Assembly (NCBI GenBank): GCA_965219415.1
Contig: CBDCNP010000002.1
Coordinates: 2,464,001 to 2,528,000, forward strand
Source of the DNA: Candidatus Marinacidobacterales bacterium
Lineage (GTDB): Bacteria; Acidobacteriota; Vicinamibacteria; Marinacidobacterales; DATDRI01
Length of the DNA: 64,000 bases
Reading direction: 5' to 3'
Of this stretch, positions 47,130 to 50,673 are shown one piece after another; within the stretch, counting starts at the first letter, position 1, and the number at the start of each line of letters is the position of its first letter. A program made the translations under genes and the position numbers. The notes under the pieces were generated by a model. The model was not told where the DNA came from. It did no database searches and saw only the letters and a list, made by a program, of their open reading frames with translations.

Positions 47130-47939
47130 GTGGTGAGGAATTGCGATCGCCTGAGCGCCGAGGAGCTCTGGCGTTTCCATAACGACGGATTCATGGTGCC
47201 GGACTGCCGCCTGCCGCAGGACGTGGTGGCGGAGATGCGCGAAGCCTATGATGAGCTGCTGTCAGCCAATCCGGGTTTCTCCTCGGACTTCATGCTGGGG
47301 CCGCACCTGGAGACCACCGGCGCACAGGGTGTTCGGGGCTCACGACGGTGGCTCAGTTTCGTCACTCGACCCGAGCTACTCGACATGGTCGAGCAATTGA
47401 TAGGGGAGGACATTATCCTCTGGGGAACGACCATCTTCGGCAAGCCGGCGCACGGCGGCAAGGCGACTCCCTGGCATCAGGACGGCGCGTACTATCCCAT
47501 TCGACCACTCGAGACGCTGTCAATCTGGATTGCGCTCGACGACGCCGTACCGGACAACGGTTGCATGCGCTTCATCCCCGGCTCCCACAAGGACCGCAAA
47601 ATCTTTTCTCATCATTGGGAAGAGGATCAGGATCTCACGATCAACCGGGTCTGCGACTCGGAGCACTTCGACGAGGCGTCGGCGCGCGATCTAGTTCTCG
47701 CGGCCGGCCAGATCTCGTTTCACGACGTCTACATCATCCACGGCTCGCGCGCCAACCCCTCGGGCCGCCGGCGCGCGGCACTGGTGGGGCGGTTCATGCC
47801 CGGCCATTGCCACTACGACCACGAGCTGGGCCTCCGATTGGCAGAACCGCACAAGGCCCACGACTACGGCAAGCGGGCCTTGTTCCTCCTGCGCGGGCGC
47901 GACCGCTCGGGACGGAACGATTTCTCAGTCGGCCACTGA
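47130..47939 (+). CDS. Phytanoyl-CoA dioxygenase (PhyH) family Fe(II)/2OG oxygenase
   Basis: TPWHQDGAYY, WIALDD, NGCMRFIPGSH, HGS...RRA. Confidence 0.9.
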   Translation: MVRNCDRLSAEELWRFHNDGFMVPDCRLPQDVVAEMREAYDELLSANPGFSSDFMLGPHLETTGAQGVRGSRRWLSFVTRPELLDMVEQLIGEDIILWGTTIFGKPAHGGKATPWHQDGAYYPIRPLETLSIWIALDDAVPDNGCMRFIPGSHKDRKIFSHHWEEDQDLTINRVCDSEHFDEASARDLVLAAGQISFHDVYIIHGSRANPSGRRRAALVGRFMPGHCHYDHELGLRLAEPHKAHDYGKRALFLLRGRDRSGRNDFSVGH

Positions 47940-47959
47940 TTCTCGGGTGGGCGTAGGCC

Positions 47960-48165
47960 GACTGGCTGCGACCGCATCATCCCGACGCGGCGGCCAGTCT
48001 GAAAAGGCTATGCAGGCCGGTCTGACCACGCGACGGCTCACCTTTCGAAACATCTTCTTGGCGATGACGATTCCTTTGTGGTCGCGGATCGAGGTTTTCT
48101 TGCTCACTGGGGCGCGCAACCCGGTCTCTTCCGCACCTGAACCACTGCCCGCAGCCGCGTAGCAA
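47960..48165 (+). pseudogene. IS1-family transposase C-terminal remnant; its right TIR is split by IS1111
   Basis: AMQAGLTTRRLTFRNIF tail ends in TAG, then CAACA; the rest of the TIR (CTTGATGGCGGAAGCACC) is at 49607-49624. Confidence 0.7.
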
Positions 48166-48269
48166 CATATCTGGACTCCTCTAGTCAAGCCCCTTTCTTT
48201 CTAGTCACGCCCCTTTCTTAATAAATCTTCCATCGAAGCTGCGCATCCATCGCGTCGTGACGAGTGGGT

Positions 48270-48430
48270 CAGACTGCAAACGTATCTTCGGCCTCAGTGA
48301 GGAGCGTCTTGGGTGCTCCGGGCCATGATGGAAAATCCGCGCGCGAGGAGCCAATCACTTTGAACGACCTCTTAGGGCCAGTGTTGCTATTGGCTTGACC
48401 CCGCGCCGGTCCGACCGGTACGCCATCAGT
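48270..48430 (-). ncRNA. Predicted bridge/seek RNA of the IS1111 element
   Basis: Two internal loops, closed by AGCCAAU/AUUGGCU and GCGGA/UUUGC, whose single strands match the target and donor junctions; RNA ends are approximate. Confidence 0.8.
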
Positions 48431-48497
48431 TGGATGGGTATCGTCGCAGCCTCTTTTGGAAGGGAAAAAGGAAAACACGAAAGTGGAGCCTCTAAAT

Positions 48498-49529
48498 CTA
48501 AGCGGCCACCGGCGACTGGAATTCACTCTCGCGGGTGGAGACGGCCCAGACGATCCGGGCGAGTTTGTTGGCGACAGCAATCACGGCCTTGTTGTGTCCC
48601 CGCGAGCGGTGGACCTTCCGAGCCCAGGCGCGGAGCTTGTCGGGCGGGCTCTTGCTGACGTTCGCCGCGCGGAGCACGGCGCGCCCGCCCTGGGTGAGGA
48701 GCATACGGAGGTAGGAGTCGCCACGCTTGGTGATGCGTCCGAGGCGGCGAATGTCGCCACTGGAGTTTTCCTTGGGAACTAGGCCGAGGTAGCTCGAGAA
48801 GCGGCGCCCCGATGGGAAGCGGCGAAGATCGCCGACGAAGCCCACGATGGCGGTCGCGGCCAGAAGTCCGATGCCGGGAATGGCGAGAAGTCGTTGGACT
48901 TCAGGAAGCTGCTTGGTGAGCGCCTTGAGCTCGTGCTCGATGCTAGCGCACTTGTCCTTGAGTTCTCGAATCTCGGAGCAGGCATCACGGAGATGCGAAC
49001 GGAGCACGTCGGGCAAATCAGAATCAGCGTCTTCGACGAGTTCGAAGAGGGCGGGCACGACGAAGTGAGCGCCCTTTGGGATGATGAATCCGAGTTCGCG
49101 CAGGAGCCCGCGTACGGCATTGATGCGTGCGGTCCGTGTGGAGAGCCATCCTGAGCGCAGGCGATGGAGCGCAGCGAGGGTGTGCTGGTGCACGGACTTG
49201 ATGGGTACGGGAAGAAGCTCCTCGTTCCTGTAGGCCTCGAGCAACGCCTTCGTGTCGGCGCGGTCGTTCTTGCTCCCGCGTCGATACGGCCTCACGAGGT
49301 GAGGTGGGAGCAGGACGACGTCGTGTCCCAACCTTCGGAACGTCCTTGCCCAGAAGTGAGCCGAGCCGCAGGCTTCGAGAAGCACGGTGGCAGCGCTCTG
49401 TTTGGCAAAGAACGACACCAATTTGGGTCGACTCACACGGAGTTGCTTGGACACCTTCCCCGCTTCTCCCGAGATGGCAATCTCGAAGACGTTCTTTGCA
49501 AGATCCACAGCGATTGTCGTATCTTTCAT
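48498..49529 (-). CDS. IS110 family DEDD recombinase/transposase
   Basis: IAVDLAK, LLEAC, KNDRAD, IPGIG, YLGLVPKENSSG, GRITKRGD; RBS AGGAGG before MKDTT. Confidence 0.95.
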   Translation of the reverse strand: MKDTTIAVDLAKNVFEIAISGEAGKVSKQLRVSRPKLVSFFAKQSAATVLLEACGSAHFWARTFRRLGHDVVLLPPHLVRPYRRGSKNDRADTKALLEAYRNEELLPVPIKSVHQHTLAALHRLRSGWLSTRTARINAVRGLLRELGFIIPKGAHFVVPALFELVEDADSDLPDVLRSHLRDACSEIRELKDKCASIEHELKALTKQLPEVQRLLAIPGIGLLAATAIVGFVGDLRRFPSGRRFSSYLGLVPKENSSGDIRRLGRITKRGDSYLRMLLTQGGRAVLRAANVSKSPPDKLRAWARKVHRSRGHNKAVIAVANKLARIVWAVSTRESEFQSPVAA

Positions 49530-49624
49530 TCGGACTCCTCCTTTTCGATGCGTATTCGACTGACTTTGGCACATCGATGCCGTCTATGGAGGAGTCCATT
49601 CCATCACTTGATGGCGGAAGCACC

Positions 49625-50080
49625 GGCAGCGAAGCCAGCGATCCTTGTGTGGTTGAATCGACGACACACTTGGGCTGCCTTCTCGAGCCAGCGGGCGACG
49701 GTGTTCCAGGCAATCCCTTTGGTCCGGGAAATCGAGGAAATGCTGACACCCTCGACTCTGAGAGCGGTGACCCCATCGAAAGTAGCTCTTCGATGTTGGA
49801 GACGGTAGTAGGGCGTGCCTTTCGTCGAGGAGAACGTCTTTCCGCACTCGCCGCACCGGTATCGACGGAGTTTCCCGGACCTCGTTCTGTAGAATCCGTT
49901 GTGAATAATGCTTCTGGAACCGACTGTTCCATACGACGAACATGCGGGATTGAGACATCTGCGATTCTTCACTTCGGCTCGGCCCTGACGATGAGAGAAC
50001 TGTGTCTTCAGAATTCTGGTTCAAACTCTAGCACGCAGACCGGTTACGGGCTGGCCGCCAACACTTAATTGCGGAAGCCC
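49625..50080 (-). mobile_element. IS1-family left-end remnant (TIR, leader, InsA-like N-terminus from GTG 49972)
   Basis: CLNPAC...RRYRCGECGKTFS...EGVSISSISR; TIR at 50058-50080; TGCTAGAGT extended -10-like box. Confidence 0.8.
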
Positions 50081-50340
50081 ATTTTGGCTGTAATTTAATG
50101 CAGCGTAAAGTCTTAGCGTCATCTCACCAACACTTAATGACGGAAGCACCCACGTTCTCCTGGCCGACCGACCAGATAACGGCTGCCTGATCAACAGCGA
50201 ATGGCGCAAGCACCCGGGGTGGCCGTCAGGCCGTGGAAAACTTGACAGTATCCCCCTGGCCGCATCCGACTGGACGGAGCCGATCTTCCCGAGATGAAGC
50301 GCTGCAGCATTCGGTTACAATCCTTTTTTAGGAGGGCAAG

Positions 50341-50673
50341 ATGGCTGCAGGATTTCGCTTCGTCTGTAGTGGATGCGACCATAACATCGAGGCGTGGGAT
50401 GAAGGGAACCCCTACTATATTAACGAGAACGGCAAGAAGCAGTACGCTTACCATCCCGACGTTTTGCGGAACCGCTGCATCGGCAACGACTCTCCACACC
50501 TCTGCCTGTCGTGTGGACATGAGTTCATGGTGGATTCAGAGGTACCGATTGCGGCTTGTCCAAAGTGCAAGGCGGGTAAGATCGTGGACACGATGGAGTT
50601 GAGCGGCAAAGCATGTCCCTACTGTAAGAGAGGGGTGTTCGTCGTTGACCCGGGGTGGAGGCCCATATCGTGA
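50341..50673 (+). CDS. Small zinc-ribbon protein (four CxxC)
   Basis: RBS AGGAGG; CSGC, CLSC, CPKC, CPYC. Confidence 0.75.
   Translation: MAAGFRFVCSGCDHNIEAWDEGNPYYINENGKKQYAYHPDVLRNRCIGNDSPHLCLSCGHEFMVDSEVPIAACPKCKAGKIVDTMELSGKACPYCKRGVFVVDPGWRPIS

What the first reader, a model, noticed from the sequence alone, without database searches (positions are those of the whole stretch)
48160..49624. IS1111 bridge-RNA system programmed against an IS1-family terminal inverted repeat
Seen: removing 48168-49606 rejoins TAGCAA-CA-CTTGATGGCGGAAGCACC, an intact copy of the IS1-type TIR, with the CA core at both ends of the insert. The minus-strand non-coding region folds into two loops. Loop 1 (stem AGCCAAU/AUUGGCU) holds UAGCAACACU (rc of 48380-48389), a 10/10 match to the target TAGCAACACT; opposite it, AAGUG (48356-48360) is complementary to the target's CACTT. 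Loop 2 (stem GCGGA/UUUGC) holds UUCCAUCAU (48325-48333), a 9/9 match to the circle junction TTCCAT-CA-T; opposite it, AGAUACG (48281-48287) is complementary 6/7 to CATATCT. Known: IS110/IS1111 elements use bispecific bridge/seek RNAs, and IS4321/IS5075 target Tn21-type TIRs. Inference: this element parasitises a multicopy IS1/MITE end, which gives it many safe landing sites and disables the host element. I do not know of this target class being described.
Basis: partly seen in the sequence, partly recalled or inferred. Interest (0 to 1): 0.9.

Follow-up and report, generated by a model that had tools for sequence, protein, structure and literature searches.

The report
RNA-guided IS1111-type element targeting another transposon's end
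This is a jumping gene of the RNA-guided IS110/IS1111 kind whose own small RNA is matched to one end of a second, very abundant jumping gene, so that every copy lands at the same base inside that end; the case is well supported but the kind of behaviour is already known.

Summary
Window 48168-49606 is a 1439-bp IS1111-group (IS110 family) insertion sequence. It has a DEDD transposase on the minus strand, 11-bp subterminal inverted repeats with 7-bp and 3-bp extensions, and a 330-nt non-coding region downstream of the transposase gene.

The genome holds 30 full copies. All 30 lie 18 bp inside the outer end of a terminal inverted repeat that belongs to a 1.2-kb IS1-like IS and its MITEs (about 499 ends). 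The host's two ends differ just inside the cut. The guest occupies 28 of 112 TAGCAACA ends but only 1 of 316 of the other ends, which matches its guide UAGCAACACU.

In 22 related elements the RNA scaffold and donor loop are conserved, while the target-loop bases vary. In 17 of them the target-loop bases track each element's own flanks (0 of 20000 permutations).

The novelty claim does not:
- IS4321/IS5075 target Tn21 TIRs.
- IS1383 targets IS1384 IRs.
- IS1111 targets the MITE QMITE2.
- I found a 41%-identical element inside the IS903B IR on a Klebsiella plasmid.

This is a new member of a known kind. Transcription, circle formation and inactivation of the host element remain unshown.

The parts
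48168..49606 (-). Whole guest element (IS1111-group IS), 1439 bp here and 1445 bp in 26 of the other 29 full copies (1413-1446 bp in the remaining three)
   Evidence: 30 full copies in the genome at 98.9-100% identity. Boundaries are fixed by comparison with 59 exact uninterrupted 26-mers.
48501..49529 (-). Transposase gene, 343 aa (stop codon at 48498-48500)
   Evidence: NCBIfam NF033542 'IS110 family RNA-guided transposase', 302.9 bits against a cutoff of 140. Pfam PF01548 and PF02371. The C-terminal domain matches the IS621 and ISCro4 transposases in the PDB.
48168..48497 (-). Long non-coding region downstream of the transposase gene
   Evidence: Read from the sequence. Only 77 nt lie upstream of the gene (49530-49606).
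48270..48405 (-). Structured core of the predicted bridge/seek RNA: target-binding stem-loop, then the donor-binding region
   Evidence: Folds; 22-sequence alignment A2 with covariation.
48380..48389 (-). Left target guide UAGCAACACU, identical to the target TAGCAA-CA-CT
   Evidence: These alignment columns are hypervariable among relatives and track each element's own flank.
48356..48360 (-). Right target guide AAGUG, complementary to CACTT
   Evidence: In relatives this guide matches its own flank at 4.29 of 5 positions, against 1.39 of 5 for other elements' flanks.
48325..48333 (-). Left donor guide UUCCAUCAU, equal to the right end TTCCATCA plus the first base of the left end
   Evidence: The position is conserved in relatives.
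48281..48287 (-). Right donor guide AGAUACG, 6 of 7 complementary to CA-TATCT and 7 of 7 to CG-TATCT
   Evidence: AGAUACG occurs in 21 of 22 relatives; the sister lineage L037 has AGAUAUG.
48171..48181 (.). Subterminal inverted repeat CTGGACTCCTC, with a 3-bp terminal extension at 48168-48170
   Evidence: It pairs with 49589-49599 at 10 of 11 positions.
49589..49599 (.). Subterminal inverted repeat GAGGAGTCCAT, with a 7-bp terminal extension at 49600-49606
   Evidence: The 7-bp/3-bp geometry is the one given for IS1111 family members in PMC11187229.
48180..48219 (.). Two tandem 20-bp repeats (TCTAGTCA[AC]GCCCCTTTCTT) between the RNA region and the subterminal repeat
   Evidence: Copy number varies among copies: one, two, or three or more. 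Function unknown.
48160..48167 (+). Inner part of the target, TAGCAA plus the core CA. TAG is the stop codon of the host IS transposase.
49607..49624 (+). Outer 18 bp of the host terminal inverted repeat. Flanks diverge immediately after 49624.
   Evidence: 30 of 30 copies have this sequence (27 exact, 3 with one mismatch), followed by unrelated sequence.
48006..48167 (+). 162-bp 3' remnant of the IS1-like host IS (C-terminal end of its transposase gene)
   Evidence: blastn to a full 1200-bp copy, positions 1021-1182, 95% identity. ORF 47947-48162 compared with the full host transposase.
49625..50079 (-). 5' part of a second copy of the IS1-like host IS (N-terminal 122 aa of its transposase), cut off by the first host copy's end
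   Evidence: ORF 49604-49972 compared with the full host transposase. A degenerate end lies at 50058-50079.

Best explanation
Window 48168-49606 is an autonomous insertion sequence of the IS1111 group of the IS110 family.

Proposed mechanism, inferred by homology with ISEc11, ISKpn4, ISPa11 and IS621:
1. The element excises as a circle, which joins ...TTCCATCA to TATCTGG....
2. Its DEDD/serine recombinase is loaded with an RNA made from the 330-nt region downstream of the transposase gene.
3. One internal loop of that RNA (UAGCAACACU and AAGUG) pairs with the two strands of the target TAGCAA-CA-CTT.
4. A second region (UUCCAUCAU and AGAUACG) pairs with the circle junction.
5. Strand exchange at the CA dinucleotide inserts the element without any further duplication.

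The programmed target is the inner part of one end of an IS1-like insertion sequence and its MITE derivatives, 18 bp from the terminus. The three guide bases furthest from the core (UAG) read the host transposase's stop codon. These are the bases that distinguish the host's two ends, so only one end is used.

Shown here: family membership, element boundaries, site constancy, discrimination between the two host ends, a conserved RNA scaffold, and guide-flank covariation in relatives.

Inferred: that the RNA is made, that a circle forms, and that the host end is inactive while it is occupied.
For: (1) Family. NF033542 scores 302.9 bits against a cutoff of 140; PF01548 and PF02371 match. The element has an 11-bp subterminal repeat (10 of 11 matching) with 7-bp and 3-bp extensions and its NCR downstream of the gene. 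These are the features listed in PMC11187229.

(2) Site constancy.
- 30 of 30 full copies have CTTGAT[GA]GC[GA]GAAGCACC on the right, followed by unrelated sequence.
- On the left, 28 of 30 have TAGCAACA directly. One has it via a 285-bp partial tandem copy of the element. One has CGCCAACA.

(3) Independent insertions.
- Hosts include full IS1-like copies, 5'-truncated copies with 88-850 bp left, complete MITEs and at least one further MITE class.
- Host MITE copies are 92-97% identical to a reference MITE, while guest copies are at least 98.9% identical to each other. The guests are therefore younger than their hosts.

(4) Natural specificity test.
- The host's ends are asymmetric: 29 of 29 intact 1.2-kb copies have one [TC]AGCAACA end (28 TAGCAACA, 1 CAGCAACA) and one end of the other type.
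- Occupancy is 28 occupied against 84 empty for TAGCAACA ends, and 1 occupied against 315 empty for [CT][AG]CCAACA ends. Fisher's exact p = 7e-17.

(5) The 10-mer guide is unique in the window, with 0.01 expected.

(6) Relatives.
- In 22 ncRNAs the scaffold and donor guides are conserved and the target-loop positions are hypervariable.
- Structure: 91.7% of cells paired against 34-48% in slid controls, and 12 compensatory pairs.
- In 17 elements the guides match their own flanks far better than other elements' flanks: RTG 4.29 of 5 against 1.39, LTG 6.41 of 8 against 3.84, 0 of 20000 permutations.
- The 61%-identical element in G008 has LTG CAACUGCGU and RTG GUCCGGACG beside flanks CAACTGCG|...|TCTGGACGCAGTTG.

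(7) Guide order. The complement of the transposase-sense strand comes first, as stated for IS1111 seekRNAs in PMC11187229.

(8) The same target is used by the 98%-identical copies in another genome: 5 of 5 loci in G034 have TIR-like right flanks.
Against: - No transcript, RNA end or circle junction is shown. Only assembled contigs could be laid, and they cannot show transcription.
- Rfam has no model that hits the region, and no sigma-70-like promoter was found.
- The 136-nt core does not fold better than shuffles (z -0.56).
- The closing stem of the donor loop is paired in only 56.9% of cells across relatives, so the donor guides may sit in a multiloop rather than a clean internal loop.
- The right donor guide mismatches the CA core (6 of 7).
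- The right target guide is short, 5 nt including the core. Only 3 of the 5 scored flank positions match in this element.
- In the 92-94% relatives of G016/G018, 3 of 6 loci examined have right flanks that are not the TIR (L050, L056, L062). I did not follow these up.
- Copies within a genome are kin, so the Fisher test overstates independence.
Confidence: 0.9

Rival explanations
1. The transposase protein alone recognises the host inverted repeat, as a classical site-specific recombinase would. On this view the complementarity in the non-coding region is coincidental or a passive footprint.
For: No RNA or binding was measured here. The target is a conserved protein-binding-type sequence (a TIR). 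The thermodynamic signal of the 136-nt fold is weak.
Against: - The target-loop bases change with the flanks in 17 relatives, while the protein stays 54-62% identical and the scaffold is conserved.
- The discrimination between the two host ends maps exactly to the three distal guide bases.
- Family members have experimentally shown RNA guidance (PMC11187229 passages; PMC11208160 passages).
Confidence: 0.04
2. There is no separate guest. On this view the 18-bp GGAAGCACC end and TAGCAACA are parts of one composite element that moves as a unit by the IS1-like transposase, so the constant flanks are not a target.
For: Ten MITE-plus-guest composites of 1689-1692 bp and three IS-plus-guest composites of 2625-2647 bp have both host ends.
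Against: - There are 84 unoccupied TAGCAACA ends and 59 exact uninterrupted 26-mers.
- Guests sit in host remnants truncated at many different points, which lack a second end.
- Host MITE copies are 92-97% alike while guests are at least 98.9% alike.
- Relatives with the same termini sit in unrelated targets.
- The guest has its own subterminal repeats and its own transposase.
Confidence: 0.03
3. The element is a dead relic. The copies were spread by segmental duplication or homologous recombination among the very abundant host repeats, not by current RNA-guided transposition.
For: - Two copies share a right flank (C3:3051258 and C3:4173435), and four share a similar one.
- Partial and tandem fragments exist.
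- The window copy carries a 6-bp deletion next to its subterminal repeat.
Against: - 27 copies encode an identical, open 343-aa transposase and 2 more are 99% identical.
- By my own reading of the flanks listed (not a computed count), about 25 right-flank contexts are distinct.
- Copies are at least 98.9% identical, which fits a recent burst.
Confidence: 0.03

Closest known systems
[quoted passage not shown] I saw only the title, in the reference lists; the details are recalled.
   Same: An IS1111-type element with subterminal inverted repeats that inserts at one fixed position inside the terminal inverted repeat of another transposable element.
   Different: The host there is a Tn3-family transposon in Proteobacteria. 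Here it is a 1.2-kb IS1-like IS and its MITEs in an acidobacterial genome. I did not measure sequence relatedness to IS5075.
IS1383, whose specific target is the inverted repeats of IS1384 in Pseudomonas putida H (Muller, Lauf & Herrmann 2001). I saw only the title, in the reference list; the paper was not read.
   Same: An IS110-family element whose integration target is the inverted repeat of another insertion sequence.
   Different: A different host IS and a different phylum. That paper was not read, so I do not know how it explained targeting. Here only one of the host's two ends is used.
IS1111 of Coxiella burnetii inserting into the MITE QMITE2 (PMC5896051; passages read)
   Same: The family's founding member lands in a multicopy MITE: 20 of 21 annotated copies there are associated with QMITE2.
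   Different: The site there is a GTAG REP palindrome inside the MITE, not the terminal inverted repeat.
seekRNA elements ISEc11, ISKpn4, ISPst6, ISPa11 (PMC11187229; passages and section 13 read) and the IS621 bridge RNA (PMC11208160; passages read)
   Same: - A DEDD recombinase plus an NCR-derived RNA with two short target-matching segments.
- NCR downstream of the transposase gene.
- Complement of the transposase-sense strand first.
- Natural retargeting between relatives.
   Different: No experiment was done here. The targets differ (attC, REP and a linear site there). The donor-binding part in this clade has a weak closing stem.
Unnamed IS110-family element on Klebsiella quasipneumoniae plasmid NZ_CP096265.1
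   Same: - Its transposase is 41.4% identical to this one.
- Its subterminal repeats are ATGGTCGCCTCC / GGAGGCGACCAT.
- It sits inside the terminal repeat of an IS903B copy (GGCTTTGTT|element|TGAATAAATCGAAC).
- The uninterrupted 22-mer occurs 4 times in the same plasmid.
   Different: The host is an IS5-family IS, and I examined a single locus. Two literature searches on elements of this family in other elements' repeats, including IS903, found no paper naming this association.
ISPa25 family transposase, the best named hit in the plasmid collection
   Same: 45.9% identity over 99% of the protein.
   Different: I did not examine its target.

Membership tests
IS110 family (RNA-guided DEDD transposases) | Transposase with an N-terminal DEDD (RuvC-like) domain and a C-terminal PF02371 domain | tested here: met
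   - PF01548, E 6.9e-12, and PF02371, E 3.2e-24.
- NF033542, 302.9 bits against a cutoff of 140.
- D9 is nearly invariant; E52, D89, D92, S256 and S257 are invariant in a 16-sequence alignment.
- Assigning these residues to catalytic roles is by analogy from recall and was not tested structurally.
IS110 family (RNA-guided DEDD transposases) | No terminal inverted repeats at the very tips and no target duplication beyond a shared core dinucleotide | tested here: met
   CA lies at 48166-67 and 49605-06, and once in the 59 uninterrupted sites.
IS1111 group | Subterminal inverted repeats (11-13 bp per PMC11187229; 7-17 bp per PMC11208160) | tested here: met
   48171-48181 pairs with 49589-49599 at 10 of 11 positions. 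The repeats are conserved as GGAGTCCAGATA / ATGGACTCC in relatives.
IS1111 group | Asymmetric terminal extensions: 7 bp at the transposase-proximal end and 3 bp at the other | tested here: met
   TCCATCA at 49600-49606 (7 bp) and TAT at 48168-48170 (3 bp), with boundaries fixed by the empty sites.
IS1111 group | The long non-coding region lies downstream of the transposase gene | tested here: met
   330 nt downstream against 77 nt upstream.
IS1111 group | An NCR RNA with two target-matching segments, the complement of the transposase-sense strand first | tested here: met
   UAGCAACACU comes first, then AAGUG. Covariation with flanks in 17 relatives. All of this is in silico.
IS1111 group | The RNA co-purifies with the transposase and is needed for movement; a circular intermediate forms | not testable with these tools
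   Only assembled contigs of public runs could be laid. They show neither transcription nor a circle.
Rfam-curated RNA family | A match to a curated covariance model | tested here: not met
   Only two chance-level hits (a miRNA and a snoRNA, E 0.13 and 0.52) in 47500-50500. No bridge or seek RNA family matched.
IS1 family (the host element, not the guest) | A transposase matching the curated IS1 model above its cutoff | tested here: inconclusive
   - NF033558 is the best hit, but at 84.5 bits against a cutoff of 100.
- PF03400 scores 21.6 bits against a cutoff of 24.1.
- An N-terminal zinc-finger motif matches weakly (NF050000, 19.8 bits against a cutoff of 28).
- 'IS1-like' is the safe label.
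IS1 family (the host element, not the guest) | Target-site duplication (8-9 bp in classical IS1; recalled) | tested here: not met
   48 of 56 intact host elements have no flanking direct repeat of 2 bp or more, and the longest found is 3 bp.

The most novel reading that the evidence does not exclude
The guest may be a hyperparasite that reads one specific end of its host transposon through three distal guide bases (the host's stop codon). On this reading it splits the host's 23-bp terminal repeat and so takes host copies out of circulation. Guest and host have spread together between two bacterial families.

The lineage also appears to have been retargeted from REP-like palindromes with a CG core (in the transposase's orientation, the 3'-junction dinucleotide of most relatives) to a TIR with a TG core (= CA on the window's plus strand). 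This left the right donor guide mismatched at the core in this lineage (AGAUACG), while a sister lineage carries the compensating change (AGAUAUG). If so, that guide position is dispensable, or matters only after strand exchange.
Probability: 0.3. Interest if true: 0.5.

Novelty: new member of a known kind. Interest (0 to 1): 0.4.

Why it matters
The finding adds no new principle. RNA-guided IS110/IS1111 elements are known, and so are family members that land in the repeats of other mobile elements.

Its value is as a clean natural data set:
- One genome offers about 430 near-identical candidate sites in two classes that differ at three guide positions. Occupancy is 28 of 112 for one class against 1 of 316 for the other. 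That is an in-vivo measure of mismatch discrimination at the distal end of the left target guide.
- A set of relatives shows natural reprogramming of the target loop on a conserved scaffold.

It also documents transposon-on-transposon parasitism in Acidobacteriota. In this genome the host IS and its MITEs have expanded to hundreds of ends.

Tried and rejected
- Rfam search of 47500-50500 at E up to 1: only two chance-level hits and no bridge or seek RNA family.
- Sigma-70 promoter and terminator scan of 48100-49700: no promoter, and two plus-strand terminator-like sites at chance level. This is uninformative for this phylum.
- Search for an empty site of the G008 relative (a palindrome pattern): 0 matches. 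That element's exact boundaries therefore remain ambiguous by 8 bp.
- L052, the 54% relative in G026, has a frameshifted 5' region and ends I could not define. I used it only in the RNA alignment.
- Public runs. All four laid runs are assembled contigs.
  - Contigs from two libraries labelled metatranscriptomic cover parts of the transposase gene and small parts of the NCR at 90-99% likeness. The tool states that this does not show transcription.
  - A joint 48295 to 48399 in one such run has only 21 letters on its shorter side, so I disregard it.
  - The joints that skip 1438-1439 bases simply represent empty host ends elsewhere and are no evidence of excision.
- I looked for a circle-junction promoter. 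A conserved TTGAC lies 15-16 nt from the RNA-side terminus in relatives, but the -10 candidates across the junction are poor. I make no claim.
- Target-site duplications of the host IS: none.
- I considered and rejected the idea that the 41% plasmid hits are IS5075. The one locus examined sits in the IS903B repeat instead.
Supplementary files of the papers were not opened. Supplementary target tables of PMC11187229 and PMC11208160 might already list IS-end targets.
- Dropped from the 22 rows before the covariation count:
  - L037: same guides as the window.
  - L093: its 5' flank is cut by the contig end.
  - L039, L052 and L106: their ends were not found by the motif search.
Full report
**What is there.**
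- TAGCAA-CA ends at 48167, the insert runs 48168-49606, and CTTGATGGCGGAAGCACC follows at 49607-49624.
- The minus strand carries an open 343-aa gene at 48501-49529.
- NCBIfam calls the protein an IS110 family RNA-guided transposase (NF033542, 302.9 bits, cutoff 140). Pfam finds PF01548 and PF02371.
- Its C-terminal domain matches the solved IS621 and ISCro4 transposases (E 9e-8 and 2e-8).
- The element has 11-bp subterminal inverted repeats (48171-48181 and 49589-49599, 10 of 11 matching).
- It has a 7-bp extension at the transposase end and a 3-bp extension at the other end.
- A 330-nt non-coding region lies downstream of the gene, against 77 nt upstream.

These are the features that PMC11187229 gives for the IS1111 family (passages read).

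**Copies and their sites.** The window lies in an 8.05-Mb, three-contig genome (96% complete, 8.5% contamination).
- blastn finds 30 full-length copies at 98.9-100% identity, plus fragments.
- All 30 have the 18-mer on the right (27 exact, 3 with one mismatch), after which the flanks are unrelated.
- On the left, 28 have TAGCAACA directly. One has it through a 285-bp partial tandem copy of the element. One has CGCCAACA.
- The uninterrupted 26-mer occurs 59 times exactly.

**The host element.** The outer 18-mer, allowing up to 3 mismatches, marks 499 ends (254 in one orientation, 245 in the other). Paired ends give:
- 29 elements of 1198-1212 bp;
- 14 elements of 235-251 bp;
- 10 elements of 1689-1692 bp (MITE plus guest);
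- 3 elements of 2625-2647 bp (IS plus guest).

The 1.2-kb element encodes a 404-aa protein with an N-terminal zinc finger.
- Its best family match is IS1, but below the curated cutoffs (NF033558 84.5 of 100 bits; PF03400 21.6 of 24.1 bits).
- It makes no detectable target duplication: 48 of 56 elements have none.
- I therefore call it IS1-like.

In the window the occupied host is only a 162-bp 3' remnant (48006-48167). It abuts a truncated second host copy on the other strand (49625-50079).

**A natural specificity test.** The host's two ends are not identical just inside the insertion point.
- In all 29 intact 1.2-kb copies, one end reads [TC]AGCAACA-CTTGATGG (TAGCAACA in 28, CAGCAACA in 1). 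The TAG is the transposase's stop codon.
- The other end reads C[GA]CCAACA-CTT[GA]ATGG or a near variant.
- Genome-wide there are 84 empty and 28 occupied TAGCAACA ends.
- There are 315 empty and 1 occupied end of the CACCAACA, CGCCAACA, TACCAACA or TGCCAACA types.
- Fisher's exact p is 7e-17. Copies are kin, so the p-value overstates independence.

The three differing bases are exactly the three distal bases of the guide UAGCAACACU. That 10-mer occurs once in the 64-kb window, inside the NCR (0.01 expected).

**Independent insertions.**
- Guests sit in full IS copies, in IS remnants with 88-850 bp left, in complete MITEs and in at least one other MITE class.
- Host MITE copies are 92-97% identical to a reference MITE, while the guests are at least 98.9% identical to each other.
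- 27 guests encode an identical transposase.

This fits a recent burst into pre-existing, already diverged host copies. It does not fit movement of a composite element.

**The RNA.**
- The energy is unremarkable (z -0.56). For the 333-nt NCR, z is -2.69.
- Rfam has no matching family.

The stronger evidence is comparative. The transposase has thousands of relatives: 6426 of 8000 scored candidates at E of 1e-20 or better.

An alignment of 22 NCR cores shows:
- a conserved scaffold;
- a conserved donor region (UUCCAUCAU-like; AGAUACG in 21 of 22);

For the structure I specified:
- 91.7% of cells pair, against 34-48% when partners are slid;
- 12 of 30 pairs show compensatory changes;
- 0 of 500 shuffles reach the observed values. 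RNAalifold independently finds 13 of 32 pairs with compensatory changes.

This agrees with the remark in PMC11208160 that many IS1111 orthologues hold donor-binding bases in a multiloop.

**Guides track flanks.** I located the ends of 17 elements by the conserved termini. Five of the 22 rows were dropped, for reasons given under Tried and rejected.
- The right target guide matches its own flank at 4.29 of 5 positions, against 1.39 for other elements' flanks.
- The left target guide matches at 6.41 of 8, against 3.84.
- No permutation out of 20000 reaches the observed total.
- The 61%-identical element of G008 has guides CAACUGCGU and GUCCGGACG beside flanks CAACTGCG|...|TCTGGACGCAGTTG, which form a palindrome.
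- By eye, most relatives sit in short palindrome-like sequences. I did not test this.

The guide order matches the IS1111 rule in PMC11187229.

**Details that do not fit neatly.**
- The right donor guide AGAUACG is complementary to CG-TATCT, not to this element's CA-TATCT.
- In most relatives the dinucleotide at that junction is CG in the transposase's orientation, which AGAUACG matches exactly as RNA-like sequence. Here it is TG in that orientation (= CA on the window's plus strand).
- The 92-94% sister lineage in G016/G018 has AGAUAUG, which restores the match.
- In that sister lineage, 3 of 6 loci examined have right flanks that are not the TIR. Two of those have left flanks made of another copy's interior. 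I did not resolve them.

**Distribution.** With the transposase as query:
- 0 of 7 genomes of the same family have a match;
- 6 of 17 genomes in a second family of the same order have a match;
- 0 of 16 genomes in a third family have a match.

The 98%-identical copies in G034 sit in the same MITE and the same site. Named close relatives are MAGs labelled Candidatus Marinacidobacterales. This points to horizontal spread of guest and host together.

**Expression.** Only assembled contigs could be laid. They give no verdict on transcription or circles.

**Comparison with what is known.** The kind is established.
- PMC11187229 and PMC11208160 show RNA guidance for IS1111 and IS110 members (passages read).
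- Their reference lists cite IS4321/IS5075 targeting Tn21 TIRs and IS1383 targeting the inverted repeats of IS1384 (titles only seen).
- PMC5896051 reports IS1111 inserted in the MITE QMITE2 (passages read).
- tblastn against plasmids gives ISPa25 as the best named hit (45.9% identity).
- The same search gives many enterobacterial hits at 41.4%.
- The one I opened lies inside the terminal repeat of IS903B. The uninterrupted 22-mer is present four times in the same plasmid.
- My literature searches found no report of an IS1-like host, or of this acidobacterial element.

**Does it disable the host?** The insertion splits a roughly 23-bp inverted repeat after base 18, so inactivation is plausible but inferred. 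The only data are indirect: occupied IS1-like hosts are full-length in 3 of 14 cases, against 28 of 48 unoccupied ones (one-sided p 0.016). Age or kinship could explain that difference equally well.

**Verdict.**
- Observation: confirmed.
- Mechanism: well supported in silico.
- Novelty: modest, a new member of a known kind.
- Confidence in the main reading: 0.9.
- Interest: 0.4.

Noticed in passing
window 49586-49587: The window's copy lacks 6 bp (TGTCAG) that other copies carry just inside the transposase-side subterminal repeat: 1439 bp here, 1445 bp in 26 of the other 29 full copies (table 4).
   Followed up: partly
window 48180-48219: A 20-bp unit, TCTAGTCA[AC]GCCCCTTTCTT, is tandemly repeated between the RNA region and the subterminal repeat. 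Different copies have one, two, or three or more units. Function unknown.
   Followed up: partly
G000 C3:3315127-3316855; L049 (G034); L056, L043, L036, L062 (G016): Partial copies of the element, often the RNA-side part, lie head-to-tail beside full copies. This resembles the tandem partial duplications of IS110 loci described in bioRxiv 10.64898/2026.08.14.744561 (passages read).
   Followed up: no
window 48281-48287 and L037: The right donor guide AGAUACG (21 of 22 relatives) mismatches this element's CA core. The sister lineage in G016/G018, whose examined copies partly use the same TIR target (3 of 6 right flanks), has AGAUAUG, which matches.
   Followed up: partly
whole genome G000: The IS1-like host and its MITEs have about 499 ends. 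These are concentrated in contig C3 beyond 2.5 Mb, with 462 on C3, 27 on C2 and 10 on C1. 48 of 56 intact elements have no flanking direct repeat.
   Followed up: partly
window 47947-48167 and 49625-50079: A nest of host debris: a 162-bp 3' remnant of one IS1-like copy abuts a truncated second copy on the opposite strand, cutting its transposase after 122 aa.
   Followed up: partly
G034, G016, G018, G014, G026: The guest is 92-98% identical in a different family of the same order and was not found in the 7 same-family genomes searched. In G034 it sits in the same MITE. This suggests horizontal transfer of host and guest together.
   Followed up: partly
L144 (plasmid NZ_CP096265.1, locus 1400-2820): An IS110-family element, 41% identical in its transposase, lies inside the terminal inverted repeat of an IS903B copy. 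Four uninterrupted copies of that repeat are present in the same plasmid.
   Followed up: yes
window 47130-47939: An ordinary PhyH (phytanoyl-CoA dioxygenase) family gene lies directly beside the host remnant (PF05721, E 5e-35).
   Followed up: no
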